Source: Eledone cirrhosa
Lineage: Eukaryota
Direction of reading: 5' to 3'
Assembly (NCBI GenBank): GCA_964016885.1
Contig: OZ024740.1
Coordinates: 215,946,001 to 216,010,000 of the forward strand
DNA length: 64,000 nucleotides
Below the pieces are notes generated by a model that ran no database searches, had not been told where the DNA came from, and saw only the letters and a program-made list of their open reading frames with translations. The position numbers and the translations under genes are program-made. Below are positions 24,555 to 64,000 of this stretch, one piece after another. How positions within the stretch are numbered: the stretch's first letter is position 1; every line of letters begins with the position of its first letter.

Positions 24555-25350
24555 TAGTCCTCTGCAATCACACCCATGTTTCACTACCGTGCAGCATTGC
24601 ACTTCACACACAGGCGTCACACGGTTGTCATTTTGTACGTAAGGAGAAACTTTTTGTTGTCAACAGTGGGAGTAGTTCTCTAAACTCCTTCCATCCTATT
24701 TTTATACTATCAATTATGCCCTCAGAGCACCCTCAATTACTCCTGTGTATTTTTTACATACAAAGTCTTCCCTTCTTGTTAGTCTACATCTCTCGTGCAC
24801 CCAAGATTTACATTGTGTACATTGTATGGAGTTTATGCCTATTCCTTTTCTAAATATTGAGCAGGGCCACTTCCCCGAAGTAATCGGCATCCTATCTTCT
24901 TTTCTACTTACTAACACTTTAGTTTTGGCTAAGTTTACTCTCAGCCCATTTGAGCCCAAATTCTGTTTCCATAATTGGAACTTATTTTTTAGTTCTTTAA
25001 TGGACTCAACTATAAGGACCAGAACATCCTCATAGAGAAGTTCCCATGGATAACCAATATTAAACTCCTCTGTTATAACATAGAGAACTATGATGAATAG
25101 TAACGGGCTAAGAACTGAACCTTGATGAACTCCTACATGTACTCTGAATTCCTCACTAAACTCACTTCCTACTCTCACTTTACTGACAGCTCCTCTGTAC
25201 ATAGCTTGCACTGCTCTTACAAGCAATTCTTCTACACCTTATTTCCTTAGGGACCACCATGCAATAGATTGACGTACTCTGTCAAAGGATTTTTCTAGAT
25301 CAACAAAAGTTAAGTATGGTTTACTCTTGACTAGGAACTTCTCTTGTAGT
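24555..25350 (-). mobile_element. RTE-clade LINE reverse transcriptase fragment
   Basis: ORF 24714..25226: AVQAMY..VGVHQGSVLSPLLFIIVL..PWELLYEDVLVL (YADD degenerate)..GLRVNLAKTKVL, followed by a Cys-rich insert. Confidence 0.92.
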
Positions 25351-29439: not shown

Positions 29440-30877
29440 ACAGAAGTCAATGACTTCTTATATAGGTCTTGTAAATATACTATTTTTGATGAAAGTCTAC
29501 TAACGAGCTTATTTTCAACGACCATTCCACATATTACAATGAAGCTCTTGCTCGGAGTGGATTTGTCGATAAGGTAGCATATACAGAGTATGAGAATAGA
29601 CCTAGAAGAAATAGATCCCGATGCATTATATGGTATAACCCACCATATAATATGGAGGTGGCCACACCATTAGCTAAGATCTTTCTCTCCCTTATTACGA
29701 AGCATTTTCCCCCTACACATAAATATAGTAACATTTTTAATAGAAATACTATTAAAATTTCTTACTCTACGACTCCTAACCTTGCACATAACATCACAGC
29801 TTCAAATTTAGCTAAACTACCTAGCCGTAGGAACACGTGCAACCCTGTAGTTAGTACTAACTGTAATTGTAGGAATCGGGTTGATTGCCCCCTATCCGGG
29901 AAATGCCTCTCTAGTAACATTGTCTACAAATGTAAGGTTGAAACACCCACGTCCCGTAGGGCCTACATTGGGTTAACCGCCAATAGATTCAAGCAGCGTC
30001 TTTACATGCATACCCATTCGTTACCCTCTAAGAAGGAATATGACGTCACTTTCAGCTTATATCTGGAGTCTAAAAGACAACCAGACCCAATATAAGTTAC
30101 ACTGGGAGATCCTAGCTAGGGCTAGATCATATAACGGAAATAAAAAACCATGTGACCTCTGCGCCGCTGAGGCCCTGGAAATACTCTACACCACAGACCA
30201 CATCTTAAACAAAAAATCTGAGGCAATTTCGGCTTGTAAACATAAATTGCACAACACTTTCCTGTATTACAGCCCCACATTATACCCTAACGGATAGTAC
30301 GATCTATACGTGGATATTTTACGTCTTGATGTGGTAGCTAAGTATATGTTATGTTTATACCATTACTTATTTGCATAGGTAAGTAATATATTACCTGTAT
30401 GTTTTGTGAAGGTATGTATACTTTCTAGTACGTATATTTGATTGTATATGTTATGGCGTATATTTTATATATTCTGGTACATATGCTTTTGGTTATGTGT
30501 ATACGTGAGTTTTGCGTCTGTGTGAGTATGCGAGTTCGTACGTATGTAGGGTGTGTGTATATGTGTACTTCGTGTTTTGGTTGACGTGCGTCTCCGAACA
30601 TTTGTGTATTTACATGTAGGTATCTGTGTGCGCTTGTTATATAAGTATTTATTTATTTATATATGTTTATTTAATTATTTGTATACACGCACACACACAC
30701 ATATTTATATGTGCATGTATTTGTATACCTATGACGAGTGTTTTCGCGTATGCTTGTGTATGTACGTATTTGGATGCATGTATGTATTTATTTAATTTCA
30801 ATTACCTCTGTATTGTATTTTATTTACTTTATTCTTAACTCTGAAGCGGAGAATCATTCGGTTTCCTAGTTAGAATT

Positions 30878-31148
30878 TTAGTCTACGACTTCAGTTATAC
30901 CATTTACGTGGTTTTGTCTTTGCGTGCAATTGTTCTCCACGCTCCACATGTGACGTATTATCTTCGTTTTTTCCGTTCATTGCCAGAGAACGTCTCTATG
31001 AACCACCTAAGAGAATATTAGTCTACGACTTCTTTTATACCATAAACGTGGTTCTGTCTTTGCGTGTAATTGTTTTTCACCGCTCCAAATAGTGACGTAT
31101 TATATTCGTTTTTTCCCTTTCTTTGCCAGGGAACGTTTCCACGAACCA
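30878..31148. repeat. Diverged 140-bp tandem duplication in the Penelope-like 3' region
   Basis: TTAGTCTACGACTTC..GAACCA occurs at 30878 and 31018. Confidence 0.85.
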
Positions 31149-31210
31149 AAGTATCATCTTCCTGTCTTCCTCTGGTTGCAACGTTTTTTGAAATATTCAC
31201 TTCTGCGTTC

Positions 31211-31286
31211 ACAGATTGACTTTGTTAGTTTCAGAAGATCCCGTTAAGGGTGAAAGCAGCGATTCTTTGCTTAAACTTTAATCTGT
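31211..31286 (+). ncRNA. Type I hammerhead fold with one core substitution (CAGAAGA)
   Basis: ACAGATTGA-CTTTGTT-AGTTT CAGAAGA T CCC GTTAA GGG T GAAA GCAG CGATTCT TTGC T T AAACT TTAATCTGT: stem I of 5+9 bp with a 7-nt bulge, 3-bp stem II, 5-bp stem III. Confidence 0.75.
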
Positions 31287-31841
31287 TATTTTAATAAATA
31301 TTTGCTCTACGGTTCTTATATATTTGATATATATTTATCCTTATCGAGCCCTCTTTGGATTTTAGTCTTCAAATTTATTATTATTACACACACATATATG
31401 TATATATGTGTGAGAGTATGTAAGTGTGTCTATATTCATGTATGATGATGATGATGATGGTGACAATGATAATGATGCTGATGCTGATGACAATGATGAT
31501 GATGATGGTGATGACAATGATGATACTTTACAAGGGGGAAATAATTTATTGGGTCATTCCCCCCCTCCCAGCAACAAATTGATTAGTGTTGAAATATGAG
31601 AAACCACAAAAGATACCAATTGTTGTTATGTCAGCAGTATTTCTAACATTCATTGTGCTGTTGTTGTTGTTGCTGTTTATTAATATTGCTAACATTCATC
31701 CTGTTGTTGTTGTTGTTTAGTAACATTTTATGCTTTATAATATTGTACACAGGCCTGGTGAGAGTGTTGACATCAGAGAAAGGGTTAATGAAAGACTAAT
31801 TAAAATACACAAATGCACATATACATACATATATATAGGTG

Positions 31842-31872
<31 letters not shown>

Positions 31873-31885
31873 GTACATATACACC

Positions 31886-31917
<32 letters not shown>

Positions 31918-31946
31918 TATATATATATATATAGGTGTATATGTAC

Positions 31947-31993
<47 letters not shown>

Positions 31994-32156
31994 TATATAT
32001 ATATATATATAGGTGTATATGTACATATATATATATATACACACACACATATTTATATAGGTGTATATATACAATCATGTGAATTGGGATATATATATAT
32101 ATTTATATACATACATACATATTTCTCTATATATGTATATATATATACACCTATAA

Positions 32157-32225
<69 letters not shown>

Positions 32226-32289
32226 TTATTCCGGGTTGAATCGGAGGTAACCACAGTAAGTAAGGTACTCAATACAAAGCAGAGTACAA

Positions 32290-32377
32290 AAGTTTTAATA
32301 TAGGACAGCCAGCTTCCTGATGATTTCTCACGAATGAAACAGTTCTAGTCCTGTAGAAGCTCTTCTATATTAAAACT

Positions 32378-32378
<1 letters not shown>
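32290..32378 (+). ncRNA. Type I hammerhead ribozyme with intact core and extended stem I
   Basis: AAGTTTTAATATAGGA-CAGCC-AGCTTC CTGATGA T TTC TCAC GAA T GAAA CAG TTCTAGTC CTG T A GAAGCT-C-TTCTATATTAAAACTT. Predicted cleavage is after GUA at 32355. Confidence 0.85.
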
Positions 32379-50329: not shown

Positions 50330-51570
50330 AATAATAATAATGAAATTATTGTGTACACTGCTCAGGTGCACTACAACTCTTCAAAGGTGCATGTATAGTG
50401 CATAGAATAATGTACAAATGTCAGGAAAGTGAACAGTGTATGATACATATTAGGTGTAGTGTTGGCAAATTTCAGGAAGCATGGATGTTTTAAAGGATGT
50501 AGTGTCGCGGCAGCTAACAACTGATGTAGTTAGTTTGTTCCATGCTTCAACAACTCTGAGCATGAAAAAATTGTTTCAAAATGTCATGGGAGCTGTGTTG
50601 TTTTCTGACTTTGTAAGCATGCCTATGGGTGTTAGACACACGGAATTCAAAAAGGTGCTCAGGGTTGTTGTTGGAAAGATGGTTAATAATTTTGTGGGTG
50701 TTTACCAAGTCAATTGCCAGATGTCGGAGCTTCAATGTATCCATGCCCCAGGAAGGAAGGCAATCAGAGTATGGTAGATGCTTGATGGAGGGTATTCTCT
50801 TGGTTGCACATCCCTGAAGAGTTTCCAGGAGGTCAATATTCTGAGCAAGATAGGGGTTCCAGACTTGTGATTCAAGTTTGGCTGTACCATGGTTATATAC
50901 AGCTTTAAATAGATGGCTGGAGAGCGACTGACAAAGGCCTTGCTCAGTGATGCCAAGACACCCTCAACCTTCTTGACAATTTAGAGATGTGCTTCGCCCA
51001 ACGCAAATTGCTGCTGACAGTAATGCCCAGGTCACGTTCACAAGAGGAGTTCTTGAGATTAGTGTTGTGAAGGGAGTATGTGGACACTGGGTTTTTCCTC
51101 CCAAAATGCATAGTGGAACACTTACCACAGTCAGCTGGAGTGAGCCATTGCTGCGTTGTGTCCAAGTGTGATTGCAGGAAAGATCTATAGTGTTCAGGAT
51201 CTGTCCTTTCTATCTCAAGGTACAGCTTGATGTCATCTACATATTTCAGCACTGTGGCACCCTTTAAGTTGGCATCTATGTCATTAATATATGCAACAAA
51301 CAAAAGGGGATCAAGAACAGATCCCTGCAGTACACCAGATAACATCTCATAGGGTGAAGAATGCTGTCCTACCTCTTTTCAACCGAGTTAAAAAGATCAT
51401 CCTTCACACCCATTGCAGAGAGTTTTGCCATCAGTTTTTTTGTGTGGCAAAGTTAAGGTAAACAACATCCACCCATAAGCCGCCATCAGTGATCCGGGTG
51501 ATGTCTTCAAGAAACTCAATAAGTTGATCACAGCAGCTGGAGTTAGGGATAAATCAAAATTGTGAGGGCC
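50330..51570 (-). mobile_element. CR1-clade LINE, 5'-truncated, RT to 3' end
   Basis: SGVLQGSVLDPLLFVAYINDI..KYVDDIKLY..KCSTMHFGRKNP..ERDLGITVSSNLRWAKHI..LKLRHLAIDLVNTHKII; ends in an (ATT)n tail at ~50330. Confidence 0.9.
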
Positions 51571-52759: not shown

Positions 52760-53997
52760 TATCATCATCGTTTAACGTCCATCTTCCACGCTTGCATGGG
52801 TTTGGACGGGAGTTTTCCCACTTGAGGCAAGATTGGTTGTCTTGCTCGTATAGGACTGTCTGGCAGGTTTTCTACGGCTGGATGCCCTTCCTAACACCAA
52901 CCACGTTTACAGTGTGGACTGGGAGGTTTTTACCATGCTACCTACACAGCCACATTACAGCGTGGACTATGTGTTTTTTTGTCATGACACCTACACGACC
53001 TCATTTATTTAGGACTGGATGTTGTGGTACCAACATAACTTTACATCGAAAGGGGTGGTGTGGATGGGGTGGGGGTAGTTGGACGGGGGTGTATTTTGGT
53101 TAAGAGGTGTCTACTGACTGTTGGTTTTGCTTTGTACTTAGGCAAGGCGGGTCTTCTGTATTACTGTGTAGCGCCAAAGATCTCGGTCCAGTGACATTGT
53201 CTTGGAGAGGTGTAAGTGTGTGAGGTCGGAATTTATCAAGTCGTCCCAGGTTTTTCTGGGTCTGCCTACTCCGTGGCTACCGTCTATTTTTATCACCCTG
53301 CACTTTTTTATACAGCTGTCGTCTTTCATGCGCATCACATGGCCATACCAACGTAGTCTTCTCTCGAGTAAACAGCATCTGATCCCTCTTATTCCTAATT
53401 TCTCACTTAGTTCATTTATGCTTTGCCGTTCACGTATATTACTATTACACATCCAACGGAGCATGCAAGCTTTGTTCCTCTCCAGTCTGCATAGATCCTC
53501 TGCACACAATTCCCAAGTCTCACTGCCATGTAACATTGCTGTTCGTATACAGGCACCACGTAGCCTGCCTTTCATTCTTAGAGAGAAACCTTTAGCGGCC
53601 AATAGTGGTATAAGCTCTCTGAACTTTTTCCATCCCGTTCTGACTCTAGCTATTGTATTTTCAGAGCACCTTCCCCCACTGCTGATTTTATCACCCAGGT
53701 AACGGAAGCTGTCCACTATTTCTATAGAACCATCTTTGCAATGGAATGAGCTAGTATTCTCTGGGCACTTGCTGCTACTTAGTGCACCTGAGCACCGGCC
53801 ACATATAAAATTTATATTCTTAGTTAGCTTACCTGTGATCCCACTACATATTTTATGCACCCATACTTTGCATTTGGAACATAAAATGGAGTTTCTGCCT
53901 ACTCCTTTCCTACACACTGAGCATGGTCATTTCCCAGATGGGACCAGTGCCCTATTTTCCTTCCTACATACTAGAACTTTAGTCTTAGACAGGTTAA
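52760..53997 (-). mobile_element. RTE LINE, 5'-truncated, with ORF2 C-terminus and complete 3' UTR
   Basis: ORF 53138..53917: Cys-rich insert, IEIVDSFRYLGD, AMLHGSETW, RRLRWYGHVMRM, GRPRKTW. Confidence 0.93.
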
Positions 53998-54189
53998 ATA
54001 TATATATAGAGAGAGAGGGGGAGAAAAAGAGAGAGAGGTCGATCAGGGGAACACACCAGCCAGTTAGATTTTATCCTTACTAGAAGACGAGACAGAGTGT
54101 CTGTTGTAAACATGAAGTCCCTCCCTGGTGAAGAATGCACCTACCAACATTACCTAATAGTTAGTGACCTCATAGTCAGGACTAGATGA

Positions 54190-55320
54190 ACTCAATGACA
54201 GAGGACAACCTTGAGGAGAAGAATGAGGAAGTTGATGGACCACACAGCCAGTAACAAATTTAAAGGCATATTACTTGATGCTTTTGACAGTAAGGAAGAG
54301 CAATTAGAGCCGTACAATATAGAGGAACAGTGGGAATTCCTGAAAATTAATCTGCGGAAGACAACATGAAATCTGTGGCTGGAGCAGACCTTCAGCGAGG
54401 AAGAGACTTGGTGTTGGAACAGTAAGGTGGAGGAGACAATCAAGGCCAAAAGGCATGCTTGGAAAGTATGGCGGGATGGGGGAAGTAGAGAACACTATCT
54501 GGTGGCTAGAAGAGAAGCTAGGAAACAAATGTACTTTGCAAGAAGGGAAGCAGAGGATAGAAAGTTCAAGCATGTTCTACAACGCAAGGACAAAAAACGT
54601 GAGGTGTTCAACATTGCGAGGCAATGTTTCAAAGAAAATTTTGATATTGTTGAGGAGAAGTGTGTCCATAATGATGATGGTGAACTTGCCTTCACTGATA
54701 AGAAGGTAGCTTGGAAGTATCACTACAAGAGACTACTAAATGAGGAGAATGAATGGGATAAACATAGTTTGACCACCTGTGCAAGTTAGTGGTAGCATAG
54801 TAAGTAAGGCAATCAAAGATATGAAGACAGGCAAGGCAGCTGGGCCTTCAGGGATAGTTGCTGGATGTTGAAAGCATCTGGAATGGTGGGGTATACCATG
54901 GTCACCTGGATAGTAAACCAAGTAATACCAAATGACTGGCATAGCAACATTATTGTTAATTGCTACAAGGGCAAAGGAGAAAACTATAGAGGCATTAAGT
55001 TAGTTGACCAGGTCACGAAAGTCACAGAAAGAGATATTACACAACTAATTAGAGACCGAATTGATCTAGATGAAATGCAGTTTGGGTTTGTGCTAGGTAA
55101 AAGTACCATGGATGCTTTCTTCCTTGTACAGCAACTACAAGTGAAGTACCTAACTAAAAGTAAACCCCTCTACTTAGCTTTTGTTGACTTGGAGCAATCC
55201 TTTGACAGAGTCCCCTGCTCCATTATCTGATGGGCTCTAAGAAAACTAGGAGTAGATGAGTGCCTTGTGAAAGCAATACAAGCCATGTATAGAGGAACAG
55301 TTAGCAAGGATGGAATTAAC
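54190..55320 (+). mobile_element. RTE LINE ORF2 fragment (linker and RT domains 0-3)
   Basis: AIKDMKTGKAAGPSG..IPNDWHSNIIVNCYKGKG.NYRGIKL..DEMQFGFVLGKSTMDAFF..LAFVDLEQSFDRVP. Confidence 0.92.
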
Positions 55321-55389
55321 AAGTTCCGCTCTTCTGTGTTCGAATCTGGTGTGTAGTGTCAGTTGTCCGTAAGTAGGTAGTGATTCATA

Positions 55390-56025
55390 TCATTATCATC
55401 ATCATTTTATGTCTGCTTTTCCCTGCTTGCAAGGGTGGGATGGGTCTTATTTAGCACAGCATCTCTCCACTTGTCACGGTCCTTCATCATCTCCACCACG
55501 AGCTTCAGTGATCTGAGGTCTGTTCTCACCACCTCCGCCCATGTTTTTTGTGGTCTACCTCTACTACGTCTTCCTTCAACTGGCATTTCCTAGCACTTCT
55601 TCACCCATCGGTCATCCTCCATGCGCATCACATGTCCATACCACCTCAGTCTCCTCTCTCCACACTACATTCTATCCCTCTCAGTTTCTCTCTGAACACA
55701 TTCATGCTGGGTTGTTCACGCACATTGAAACTGCACATCCAATGGAGCATGCTTGCCTCATTTCTCTTCAGCCGTCACATATCCTCTGCAGTTGCTGCCC
55801 ATGTCTCACTACCATGCAGCATTGCGCTCCTCACACAGGCATCATATAACCGGCCTTTCGTACGCAGGGAGAAACCCTTTTTCATCAGCAGAGGAAGCAG
55901 CTACCTAAGCTTCTTCCAACCCATCCTTATTCTAGATACTATGGCCTCGGAACACACCCCTCCCATGCTAATCTGATCTCCCAGGTACCGGAAGCTATCC
56001 ACCACTTCTATAGCACCCGCCAGCA
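55390..56025 (-). mobile_element. RTE LINE 3' portion (different subfamily) inserted within the + strand RTE
   Basis: The reverse strand encodes VVDSFRYLGDQIS..YDACVRSAMLHGSETW..WYGHVMRMEDDRWVKKC..GRP.KTW, followed by a (GAT)n tail. Confidence 0.88.
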
Positions 56026-56169
56026 TTTGAAAAATGTGTCTATCATATATATATATATATATATATTGTTATACTTGGGGAGGATCATATTGCCAGAAAT
56101 AATAACAGAACACACTCACTGTTTGGTTGGTTTTCGCTTCTGTATCTTTTATATCTCCATAGTTATATG

Positions 56170-56229
<60 letters not shown>

Positions 56230-56371
56230 CATATATATACACACACACACACATATATATATATATCTAGCGTCCGAAACGTTAAGACCCTCTTCCTGCT
56301 ATATCAAGCATTAATCTAATATATACCTTCCATATACTGTACCGATTGTGTTTTTATTTCAGTTTACCTTT

Positions 56372-56409
<38 letters not shown>

Positions 56410-56454
56410 GTATTATATAATTAACAATGAATATATGAAGAATTTAGCGAAAAC

Positions 56455-57350
56455 GTTGGTGTTCACCAAGGCTCTGTCCTTATCCCCCTCCTGTTTATTA
56501 TTGCCCTAAAGGCTATAACAGATGAGTTTAAGACTGGCTGCCCATGGGAACTTCTATATGCAGATGATCTAACTCTCATAGCTGAATCTATGGCAGAACT
56601 AGTGAAGAAATTCCAAACCTGGAAGCATGGTCTTAAAGTTAACCTTTCTAAGACTACAGTGCTAGTATGTAGAAAGGAAAATAGGGCACAGGTTCCCTCT
56701 GTGAAATGGCCTTGTTCCCGGTGTGTCGGAAAGGAGTAGGTAGAAATGCCATTCTAGGTCCCAAATGCAAGCTATGGGTACATGAAAGGTGTAGTGGGAT
56801 CACAGAAAAGCTATCAAAGAATGTAGGTTTTATAGGTGGCCGATGCTCAGGTGCAGTAAGTAGCAAGTGCCCACAGGATACTAGCTCCTTCTATTGCCGA
56901 GATGGTTCTATAGAAATAGTAGACACTTTCCATTACCTGGGTGACAAAATCAGCAGTGGAGGAGAGTGTTCTGAAAGTTACAGTAGCCAGAGTCAGAACG
57001 GGATGGAGAAAGTTCAGAGAGCTAATACTGCTGTTGGTCACAAAAGGTTTCTCTCTAAAAATGAAAGGCAGATTGTATGATGCTTGTAAATGAACAACAA
57101 TGTTACATGGTAGTGAGACCTGGGCATTGTGTGTAGAGGATCCGATGGATGTGTAATAGTAATATACACAAACCGCAAAGCATAAACGAACTAAGTGAGA
57201 AATTAGGCATAAGAGGGATCAGATGCAGTTTACTAGAGAAGAGATTGTGTTGGTATGGTCATGTGATGTGTATGAGGATAACAGTTGTATAAAGTGCAGG
57301 GCAATCAAAATTGGTGGAAGCTACGGAGTAGGTAGACCTGGGATGAGGTT
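56455..57350 (+). mobile_element. RTE LINE ORF2 fragment (RT domain 4 to C-terminus), probable continuation of 54190-55320
   Basis: VGVHQGSVLIPLLFIIAL..GCPWELLYADDLTLIAES..CRKGVGRNAIL..IEIVDTFHYLGD. Confidence 0.9.
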
Positions 57351-57549
57351 ATAGTGTAATAGTTCACAATTTGAATTGGTAAGATGAGATAAGCTTGATG
57401 TGTGTTCTTTCACCCTTCGTTCTTCACGAACGAACAGAAGCTGGATTAATAAAGGGCAGTTCCAGTAGCAGAGCATTTACAATTCAAAATTATAGAAAAC
57501 CAAGGATTGGTATTAATAATAATAATACTATCCTTGGCCTTCCTGAATT

Positions 57550-57584
<35 letters not shown>

Positions 57585-57646
57585 AAATTCAAGAAATATA
57601 TATATAGGCAGTAAGACTAAGATAGCAATAAGCATAATAAAGCAGT

Positions 57647-58715
57647 ATCATCATCATCATCATCATCATTTAACGTCTATCTTCCACGCTAGCATGGGTT
57701 AGACAGGAGTTGTCCCACTTGAGGCAAGATTGGTCGGGTGACCATGTCTCGCTCATATAGGACTATCTGGCAGGTTTTCTATGGCTGGATGCCCTTCCTA
57801 ACACCAACAACATTTACAGTGTGGACTGGGAACTTTTTACCATGTTACCTACATGGCCACATTACAGCGTGGACTATGTGGTTTTTTGCCATGACACCTA
57901 CACAATCTCATTAGTTTGGACTGGATGTTGTGTTACCAACATAACTTTATAGAGAAAGGGTGGTGTTAGCGGGAGTGGGAGGATGGTGTGGGGTAGTGGG
58001 TTGGGGTGTGTTTGGTTTGGAGGGGCCTATTGACTGTAGGTTAACTTTGCACGTAGGGAAGGTGGGTCTTCTGTAATACTGCATAGCACCAAAGATCTCG
58101 ATCCACTGACATTGTCTTAGAGAGGTGCAAGTGTGTAAGGTCGGAATTTATCATGTCGTCCCAGGTTTTTCTGGGTCTACCTACTCTGTAACTTCCCTCA
58201 ATTTTGATCGCCCTGCACTTTTTTATACAGCTCTCGTCTTTCATGCGCATCATGTGACCATACCAACGTAGTCTTCTCTCATGTAAACAGCATATGATCC
58301 CTCTTATTCCTAATTTATCACTTAGTTCATTTATGTTTTGCCGTTCGCATATATTACTATTACACATACAACGGAGAATGCATGCTTCATTCCTTTCCAG
58401 TCTGCGCAGGTCCTCTGCACACAATGCCCATGACTCACTGCCATGTAACATTGTTGTTCATATACAAGCATCATACAATCGGCCTTTCATTTTCAGAGAG
58501 AAACCCTTTGTGGCCAACAGCAGTATAAGCTCTCTGAACTTTTTCCATCCCGTTCTATCTCTGGCTACTGTACTTTCAGAACACCCACCACCACTGCTGA
58601 TTTTGTCACCCAGGTAACGGAAAGTGTCCACTATTTCTATGGAACATTCTGGGCAGTAGAAGGAGCTAGTATCTTGTGGCCACTTGCTACTTATTGCACC
58701 TGAGCATCGGCCACT
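57647..58715 (-). mobile_element. RTE LINE, 5'-truncated, with 3' UTR and (GAT)n tail
   Basis: ORFs 58041..58451 and 58458..58742 are close paralogues of 53138..53917. Confidence 0.93.
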
Positions 58716-62777: not shown

Positions 62778-64000
62778 CACTGTGTAACAAAAAAAAAAAT
62801 GTGTTCTCTGTTCCTGGCTTGTAATCACATTTTTTGTGTTGCTTCGGTCCCAAATAAATAAAAAAGTGCTATTAAACAGTTAAAAGTTTGGGTTTGTAAA
62901 AATTCTAAGCTATTCGCTAGAATTTGTTGTATGATGGATTTTACATTGTATGTAAGTTTAATTTGCTTATGTTAAATGATTTTTTTATACATGTTTCAGG
63001 TTAAATTAAAATTATAAAATAAAGAGTAATACCTAAAGAAAATTATAAAAGTGAAATAAAGTATAAAATTGTTAAAAAGTGGATTAAAGAGATTTATTGA
63101 TTCTGGATTTTCGCACCCTGAATAAAGGGTAAGTTGTGTTTTAAGCACACATTTTCATTAGTATGATTAGTGTTCTTTTATATTATTTAAATATGTATTT
63201 CCCTTTCCAATATTTATTTTGTATTGCATATCAAATTTATTTTCCAAGACAAGTATTCTGATGAAGAGGAGGTGATGGATGCTAAGGACTTGGATTACCT
63301 GCCTGAGGTACCAGAAAAAGTTCCTCACTTCCCAAACCAAAAAGAAGTCAATGACTTGGTCAGGGATATGGGTCCAATGCAGAGCTATTCGTCTCCAGGA
63401 TGAAGCAGTGGAACTTGGTCAAGAAGGAAGTGCAGGTGACAAGTCCGAGAAGTCGACACAAACCTTTCTCAGGCTTTTACACTCTTAGGCATGGCCTCTG
63501 CTATGACGTGCCTGGACTGTTTGACGTTATTGGGGTGCCGTTTGTGCCCAAGGAGTGGCTATTTATAGACAGCTCCACCACAAGTTTGAAGGCTGTCCTC
63601 CTCCACAATGAAAACAAGTTCCCGACACTGCCCCTAGCTCATTCAGTCTGCCTGAAGGAAGATTACTACAGTGTGAAAGTCGTCTTGGAAGCTCTACAAT
63701 ACAACCAGTACAATTGGAAAATCATTGGAGACTTCAAGATGGTGGCTTTCCTGCTTGGACTCCAAGGAGGCTTTATCAAATTCCAATGCTTCCTCTGCCT
63801 TTGGGACAGCAGAGCCACCTCTGACCACTACAAAAGAAAGAACTGGGAGCAGCAAACAGAATTTGTAGTTGGGACGCGGAACGTTAGGTGGGAGCCACTG
63901 GTTGATCCCAGGATTGTGCTCATGCCGCCACTGCACATTAAGTTGGGGTTGATGAAGCAGTTTGTGAAGGCTCAACCAAGAATCAGCCGCTTTTAAGTAC
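62778..64000 (+). mobile_element. Chapaev3-like (CMC group) DNA transposon: putative left end and decayed transposase
   Basis: PHFPNQKEVNDLVRDMG..KQWNL..EW(R)LFIDSS..SLKAVLLHN..GDFKMVAFLLGLQGGF.KF.CFLCLWDSRA..HY..PLV..LMPPLHIKLGLMKQFVKA; candidate terminus CACTGTGTAACAA at 62778. The family name is from memory. Confidence 0.75.

What the first reader, a model, noticed from the sequence alone, without database searches (positions are those of the whole stretch)
32223..32378. A ~155-nt, fully structured hammerhead-ribozyme mini-element inserted in (TA)n
Seen: between two (TA)n runs lies a non-coding island made almost entirely of stems. It has hairpin GTTATTCCG/CGGAGGTAAC, hairpin GTACTC/GAGTAC, and then a complete type I hammerhead. 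The hammerhead has core CUGAUGA at 32317-23 and GAAA at 32336-39, cleavage triplet GUA at 32353-55, stem I of 6 bp plus a further 16 bp after an internal loop, and a real monomeric stem III ACAG/CTGT. A second, diverged copy at 6841-6923 shows it is a dispersed family. Established: animal type I hammerheads are carried by Penelope-like element termini and by small non-autonomous retrozymes. Inference: this is a very small self-cleaving retroelement (retrozyme or solo pseudo-LTR) that targets TA microsatellites and may be mobilised by the Penelope-like elements present in the window.
Basis: partly seen in the sequence, partly recalled or inferred. Interest (0 to 1): 0.85.

Follow-up and report, generated by a model that had tools for sequence, protein, structure and literature searches.

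The report
Broken end of a Penelope retrotransposon
This short island is a one-off, folded-back fragment of the end of an abundant Penelope-like jumping gene whose terminal repeat carries a predicted self-cutting hammerhead RNA, so it is ordinary debris of a known kind of element rather than a new mini-element.

Summary
The hammerhead motif is real at the stated coordinates, but the 156-nt island is not an element in its own right. It is two pieces of the 3' end of a long Penelope-like element (PLE) joined head to head: 32223-32303 is the inverted 'tail', 32303-32378 the sense hammerhead. Its junction occurs once in the genome; the hammerhead core occurs 19,444 times. The long stem I extension is a 14-nt duplication made by the inversion. 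The parent has an RT plus C-terminal GIY-YIG ORF with Hydra-clade motifs, inserts in (TA)n, and its hammerhead has the U.U closing pair and 4-bp stem III already tabulated for Hydra PLEs. No tandem retrozyme arrays were seen. One useful by-product: 66 of 100 sampled cores lose upstream homology within 8 nt of the core, about 30 nt below a TATA box, and 43 of 47 short head-to-head inserts have one tailed and one tail-less end. That fits two target-primed cDNAs running off the RNA 5' end (inferred, no RNA data). Cleavage untested. Verdict: new family of a known clade; low interest.

The parts
31819..32222 (.). (TA)n-rich microsatellite, left part of the target
32223..32303 (-). Inverted arm: 3' tip of the pseudo-LTR plus the ~68-nt tail, ending at the family's outer (tailed) end; 1-3 mismatches to 22 places in fetched loci
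32225..32251 (-). Terminal tail hairpin at the tailed end; one pair is T-A in 25 and C-G in 4 of 32 copies; likely an RT start signal (inferred)
32265..32287 (-). Second tail hairpin (5-6 bp); no two-sided change seen
32290..32303 (-). 14-nt inverted duplicate of 32365-32378; makes the apparent long stem I extension; junction unique in the genome
32303..32378 (+). Sense arm: from 14 nt upstream of the core to the family's inner (tail-less) end; identical to 13 places in fetched loci
32311..32361 (+). Type I hammerhead motif, Hydra-clade form: stem I 6 bp, stem II 3 bp plus U.U, stem III 4 bp, predicted cut after A32355
32379..32547 (.). (TA)n-rich microsatellite, right part of the target
6841..6923 (-). 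Independent, shorter head-to-head fragment of a sister subfamily (loop CCC): ~28 nt of tail tip joined to a hammerhead lacking its first three core bases

Best explanation
The island is a single 5'-truncated, head-to-head insertion of the 3' end (hammerhead plus tail) of an abundant Hydra-type Penelope-like retrotransposon in a TA microsatellite, likely made when both cut ends of the target primed reverse transcription. Shown: the two halves, the unique junction, the long parent (pseudo-LTR, RT plus GIY-YIG ORF, long low-complexity spacer, pseudo-LTR with hammerhead, tail), two classes of 3' end, and a sharp 5' limit at the first bases of stem I. Inferred: the endonuclease cuts (TA)n on both strands; one end primes at the tail tip (+127 from the core), the other at an inner site (+53 to +66); each cDNA usually runs off the RNA 5' end, predicted to be a start site 30 nt below a TATA box; the two cDNA ends are joined by microhomology. 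In this copy the tail-primed cDNA stopped early (+48) and the other ran 8 nt past the usual limit. The hammerhead would trim the parent transcript 45 nt after its start and at the 3' repeat; in the island it is likely a passenger with no promoter of its own.
For: Halves map in opposite orientation on a long copy. Junction 1 hit against 19,444 core hits, controls 0. 13 of 20 extended ORF-end loci have the body plus hammerhead downstream on the same strand, 5 of 20 an inverted copy just upstream of the ORF, and L086-L088 and L090 run from tail straight into the ORF start. 47 of 58 short insertions are head to head, 43 of 47 with one tailed and one tail-less end (p about 1e-9 against 50:50); 4,827 head-to-head core pairs 2-24 nt apart genome-wide. 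66 of 100 cores lose upstream homology within 8 nt, 34 at 5-6 nt; TATA-like box 30 nt above stem I in 16 of the 22 copies listed, 3,519 exact box-to-core hits. Two-sided changes in stem I (A-U 39, C-G 13 of 54; 12 cells, 0 of 500 shuffles). Published: inverted 5' copy and one-sided tail (PMC8557442, PMC3846280), both-strand extension and two internal RT starts in vitro (PMC11167929).
Against: No RNA data, so start site, expression and cleavage are untested. The window's own sense arm starts 8 nt above the usual limit. Weak predicted fold and no Rfam match. Covariation rests on a few subfamily lineages; pairs with two-sided change 4, reached by 30 of 500 shuffles; stems II and III are invariant partly because the search pattern fixed them. 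Both arms of an insert usually share subfamily variants, which self-priming would also give. No copy with an unbroken full ORF among the 9 loci translated. Clade assigned by motifs and by eye against printed alignments, no tree.
Confidence: 0.85

Rival explanations
1. Same identity (PLE fragment) but made by self-priming or fold-back of one cDNA or of an antisense template, as proposed for rotifer Penelope palindromes, with the 5' limit set by stem I complementarity rather than by a start site.
For: Junctions are often near-palindromic at the 5' arm of stem I and both arms share variants; PMC3846280 discussion.
Against: In the window copy, the 6841 copy and 5 of 47 sampled inserts the tailed arm does not contain the hammerhead, so the other arm cannot be copied from it. 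Long copies also end at the inner site.
Confidence: 0.25
2. A stand-alone non-autonomous retroelement (retrozyme or mini-PLE) of about 155 nt that is transcribed, self-cleaves and is copied as a unit.
For: Thousands of short inserts of 130-200 nt in (TA)n; some junction strings recur; animal retrozymes are argued to derive from PLE pseudo-LTRs (bioRxiv 10.64898/2026.07.22.740005).
Against: Junction unique. Only 3 of 100 cores have another same-strand core within 500 nt, none as an array. The same junction string occurs with tailed and tail-less ends swapped (L098 against L123), which points to independent events. One hammerhead cannot release a monomer; the TATA box is missing from the island.
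Confidence: 0.05
3. A MITE-like DNA element with short terminal inverted repeats and a TA target duplication.
For: The island starts with AAGTT and ends with AACTT, between TA runs.
Against: Both ends are the two 3' ends of the retroelement; the parent encodes RT and GIY-YIG, not a transposase; copies are 5'-truncated at variable points.
Confidence: 0.01

Closest known systems
Hydra clade of C-terminal EN+ Penelope-like elements (Craig et al. 2021, PMC8557442), e.g. Penelope-1_HM, Penelope-1_NV, Penelope-13_HM, Hydra-1_Obim
   Same: RT then GIY-YIG; DKT, CxCx5C linker, CxxC and CxH motifs; (TA)n target; canonical 3' hammerhead; U.U at the base of stem II (most Hydra magnipapillata families) and ACAG/CTGT stem III (Penelope-1_NV, -1_SK, Hydra-1_Amil); 5'-truncated inverted copy noted for Penelope-13_HM.
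   Different: Not the same family as Hydra-1_Obim (other hammerhead, other protein N-terminus, by eye). RWR instead of RWK. Longer than the usual <3 kb because a 0.9-5 kb TA/TG-rich spacer lies between ORF and 3' repeat. 8-nt loop III and ~68-nt tail are longer than those tabulated (loops of 1-3 nt; tails of 30-40 nt).
PAc, Poseidon element of Anolis carolinensis (Frangieh et al. 2024, PMC11167929)
   Same: Hammerhead near the repeat-ORF junction; two internal ends that define a tail; outer end about 88 nt below the predicted cut (85-92 nt in PAc); AT-rich target.
   Different: Other clade; in PAc the ORF starts inside the hammerhead and the RT starts lie in the ORF, here the ORF starts about 45 nt below the tail.
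Animal non-LTR retrozymes (Cervera and de la Pena 2020, PMC7229834)
   Same: Type I hammerhead, AT-rich, high copy number; a U.U at the base of helix II is described for axolotl HHR_Amex2, which cleaves weakly as a monomer.
   Different: Retrozymes are head-to-tail repeats of 150-450 nt giving circles; here copies are head-to-head fragments with variable junctions tied to an ORF-bearing parent.

Membership tests
Type I hammerhead ribozyme | Core CUGANGA / GAAA / UH with three stems | tested here: met
Type I hammerhead ribozyme | Standard G10.1-C11.1 pair | tested here: not met
   U.U at 32324/32335; same variant in many Hydra-clade hammerheads and axolotl HHR_Amex2
Type I hammerhead ribozyme | Compensatory changes in stems | tested here: met
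   stem I, two pairs; few independent lineages; stems II and III not testable because the pattern fixed them
Type I hammerhead ribozyme | Match to an Rfam hammerhead model | tested here: not met
Type I hammerhead ribozyme | Self-cleavage in Mg2+ | not testable with these tools
   needs a bench assay
Penelope-like element (EN+) | Single ORF with RT and GIY-YIG endonuclease | tested here: met
   587-aa open stretch with RT motifs (L087); weak Pfam GIY-YIG hits below cut-off, E about 0.002; all copies read are broken
Penelope-like element (EN+) | Pseudo-LTRs in partial tandem, inverted 5' copy, tail at one end | tested here: met
Hydra clade | DKT, CxCx5C linker, CxxC and CxH, no CCHH, C-terminal EN | tested here: met
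   read from translations against section 11 of PMC8557442
Hydra clade | RWK motif | tested here: inconclusive
   RWR in all copies read: conservative change
Hydra clade | (TA)n insertion and canonical hammerhead | tested here: met
   82 of 100 arms end in a TA run
Hydra clade | Generally short (<3 kb); a tendency, not a diagnostic | tested here: not met
   ORF about 2.1 kb plus 0.9-5 kb spacer plus repeat
Hydra clade | Groups with Hydra RTs in a tree | not tested
   reference sequences were seen only in a paper's supplement and were not entered; compared by eye
Non-LTR retrozyme | Head-to-tail repeats with two or more hammerheads | tested here: not met
   3 of 100 cores have a same-strand core within 500 nt, no arrays; sample is the first 29 Mb of one contig
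Non-LTR retrozyme | Fixed unit amplified in many copies | tested here: not met
   junction unique
Non-LTR retrozyme | Abundant small linear and circular RNA | not testable with these tools
   no RNA run listed

The most novel reading that the evidence does not exclude
This family leaves thousands of frozen reaction intermediates that spell out the Penelope cycle: transcription starts at the first base of the hammerhead, both target ends prime at two sites near the RNA 5' end, and the resulting 'strong-stop'-like cDNAs either jump to the 3' repeat (long copies, pseudo-LTRs) or are joined head to head (about 5,000 short palindromic inserts). That would explain pseudo-LTRs, one-sided tails and head-to-head inversions in one model without an antisense template.
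Probability: 0.4. Interest if true: 0.55.

Novelty: new member of a known kind. Interest (0 to 1): 0.27.

Why it matters
The island itself matters little: it is one of many thousands of broken ends. The family is a usable natural data set on an open question, how Penelope-like elements make pseudo-LTRs, tails and inverted ends and what their hammerhead does. Its sharp 5' limit under a TATA box and its strict one-tail rule give predictions that a 5'-end mapping experiment can settle. It also warns that inversion duplications can mimic well-structured small RNAs.

Tried and rejected
Rfam, whole window and island alone: no hammerhead family; only microsatellite-driven miRNA noise. Pfam on the 587-aa RT stretch: no family. 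Protein search: 1,403 relatives among 8,000 scored, none of the 120 listed named. Sequencing runs: no RNA holder listed; four contig runs of one study laid on the island show both halves deeply covered, a trough at the junction, no listed piece spanning the whole and several other joints into 32310-32314; contigs, so used only as a side check. Earlier findings of the scan: nothing. Window PLE at 29.5-31.3 kb as parent: rejected. Naiad: rejected, endonuclease is C-terminal and a hammerhead is present. Cap copying: G precedes the 6-nt arm in 11 of 20 short arms against 0 of 30 long copies, but several of these G's can come from the partner arm, so it is not counted as evidence. Genome-wide tandem arrays were not searched beyond the 100-core sample.

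Full report
Observation. The island 32223-32378 lies between TA runs. Stem II has three pairs and a U.U at its base. The island folds at -38.9 kcal/mol, z -2.82, but the hammerhead fold lies 2.7 kcal/mol higher, and the sense half alone is no more stable than shuffles (z 0.43). Rfam finds no hammerhead.

What the halves are. A genome search with the island gave 845 candidates, 40 scored. Many hits were split into two pieces of opposite orientation. On a long copy (547 nt taken from L030) the window's 32303-32383 matches positions 405-485 in sense and 32223-32309 matches 461-547 inverted. In long copies the hammerhead is followed by a ~68-nt tail, which is the reverse complement of the island's left half. 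So the two left hairpins belong to the inverted tail, and the long extension of stem I is a 14-nt stretch present in both arms.

Not a unit of its own. The 23-nt junction has 1 match in 3.0 Gb with up to 1 mismatch, the window itself. A 30-nt core pattern has 19,444 exact matches, control 0. The copy at 6841-6923 has another junction and a broken core. Of 100 cores, 3 have another same-strand core within 500 nt and none forms an array.

The parent. The sequence upstream of the hammerhead (1,839 candidates) runs into TA/TG-rich low-complexity DNA; in 4 of 20 loci inverted PLE ORF pieces abut it, 3 of one family. A search with that ORF's end gave 1,520 candidates, 40 listed, 25 fetched; I extended 20 of the 25 to about 10 kb. 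In 13 of 20 the body and hammerhead follow on the same strand, 0.9-5.4 kb below the stop codon, and in L091 almost directly; in 5 of 20 an inverted copy sits just upstream of a truncated ORF; in L086, L087, L088 (the last two probably a local duplicate) and L090 the tail runs straight into the ORF start. At one exact core per ~150 kb such linkage is far above chance (inference). The ORF encodes RT then GIY-YIG (weak Pfam hits, E about 0.002, below cut-off) with RWR, DKT, CxCx5C, CxxC and CxH and no CCHH, the motifs given for the Hydra clade, apart from RWR for RWK. The supplement of that paper lists Hydra hammerheads with the same U.U and the same stem III, (TA)n targets, an inverted 5' copy in Penelope-13_HM, and an octopus family, Hydra-1_Obim, whose hammerhead and protein differ from this one by eye. 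The host looks like a cephalopod from genome size and microsatellite load; this is my impression, not a test.

How the fragments arise. I took all 100 core matches listed (first 29 Mb of one contig). Upstream homology ends within 8 nt of the core in 66 (34 at 5-6 nt), at 9-20 nt in 4, 21-45 in 5, 46-100 in 5, beyond 100 in 20. The 21-45 class looked like spurious alignment to one reference, so L103, L157, L159 and L165 were treated as short in the next count. After dropping second members of pairs and one duplicate (L173), 58 short insertions remained: 47 head to head, of which 43 have one tailed and one tail-less end, 3 two tail-less, 1 two tailed; 11 showed no partner by BLAST (p about 1e-9 against 50:50). 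3' ends cluster at +53, +58 to +66 and +127; 82 of 100 arms end in a TA run. Genome-wide there are 4,827 head-to-head core pairs 2-24 nt apart. The 5' limit is the first base of stem I. A TATA-like box starts 30 nt above it in 16 of the 22 copies listed, 22-37 nt in the rest (3,519 exact box-to-core matches), and in the commonest subfamily the base sits in an initiator-like context (consensus recalled, not from a call). I infer that this is the start of transcription, that both target ends prime at the two 3' sites and that the cDNAs run off the RNA. This agrees with both-strand extension and two internal RT starts in vitro (PMC11167929). Against it: no RNA data, the window's arm starts 8 nt higher, and self-priming has been proposed for such palindromes (PMC3846280), although it cannot make inserts whose tailed arm lacks the hammerhead (the window, the 6841 copy, 5 of 47).

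Is the ribozyme under selection? Stem I pair 4 is A-U in 39 and C-G in 13 of 54 arms with a full 5' strand; a tail hairpin pair is T-A in 25 and C-G in 4 of 32. On 14 hand-picked copies, 12 cells change on both sides (0 of 500 shuffles), but only 4 pairs do (30 of 500), and relatedness inflates these figures. It is likely functional in the parent; published PLE hammerheads cleave weakly or need protein.

Papers seen. PMC8557442: passages, section 11, supplement hits and part 2 of 59. PMC4209133 and PMC11167929: parts 1-2 of 4 each. PMC7229834: passages and section 15. PMC3846280 and PMC13282606: passages. bioRxiv 10.64898/2026.07.22.740005: part 1 of 5; its supplements were not seen. Six searches showed no description of this family's hammerhead; 'strong-stop' had 0 occurrences in the 6 papers listed. 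Subscription papers, Repbase and Dfam were not searchable, so the family and the run-off idea may be in print. TATA plus initiator in a pseudo-LTR, head-to-head inversions and one-sided tails are already published.

Verdict. Real hammerhead motif, wrong unit. A fragment of a new or uncatalogued family of a known PLE clade. Interest 0.27; the mechanistic reading would deserve about 0.55 if confirmed.

Noticed in passing
window 29493-31345: 5'-truncated copy of a second Hydra-like PLE family (44-53% amino-acid identity to the parent). Its 3' end has a hammerhead-like motif near 31231-31260 whose core reads CAGAAGA (U4 changed to A) with no U before the cut position; the same form is in all fetched copies shown, so the family seems to have spread with a non-canonical core.
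   Followed up: partly
L091:8441-9292 (G000:C1210): Parent copy in which the ORF end joins the 3' repeat almost directly, the low-complexity spacer being absent.
   Followed up: partly
L036 and L044, upstream of the 3' repeat: Inverted ORF pieces of other PLE families abut this family's repeat (a second GIY-YIG type in L036, a different RT in L044): chimeric or nested insertions between families.
   Followed up: no
L097-L182: At least five subfamilies differ in loop II (AAA, AAT, CAC, CCC, TTT); both arms of one insert nearly always carry the same variant. The AAA/AAT types are the most numerous and uniform in the sample, probably the youngest.
   Followed up: partly
window 50547-51378, 53138-58457, 24714-25238, 63355-63996: Fragments of other mobile elements: LINE-type RT pieces and a transposase-like stretch (by eye).
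   Followed up: no
window 58891 (- strand): Another CUGAUGA...GAAA string found by the motif scan, in a context resembling a PLE end; not folded or searched.
   Followed up: no
L035, L039, L047, L024 flanks: Other repeats in the flanks also appear as head-to-head pairs between TA runs, suggesting that several PLE families in this genome make the same kind of insert.
   Followed up: no
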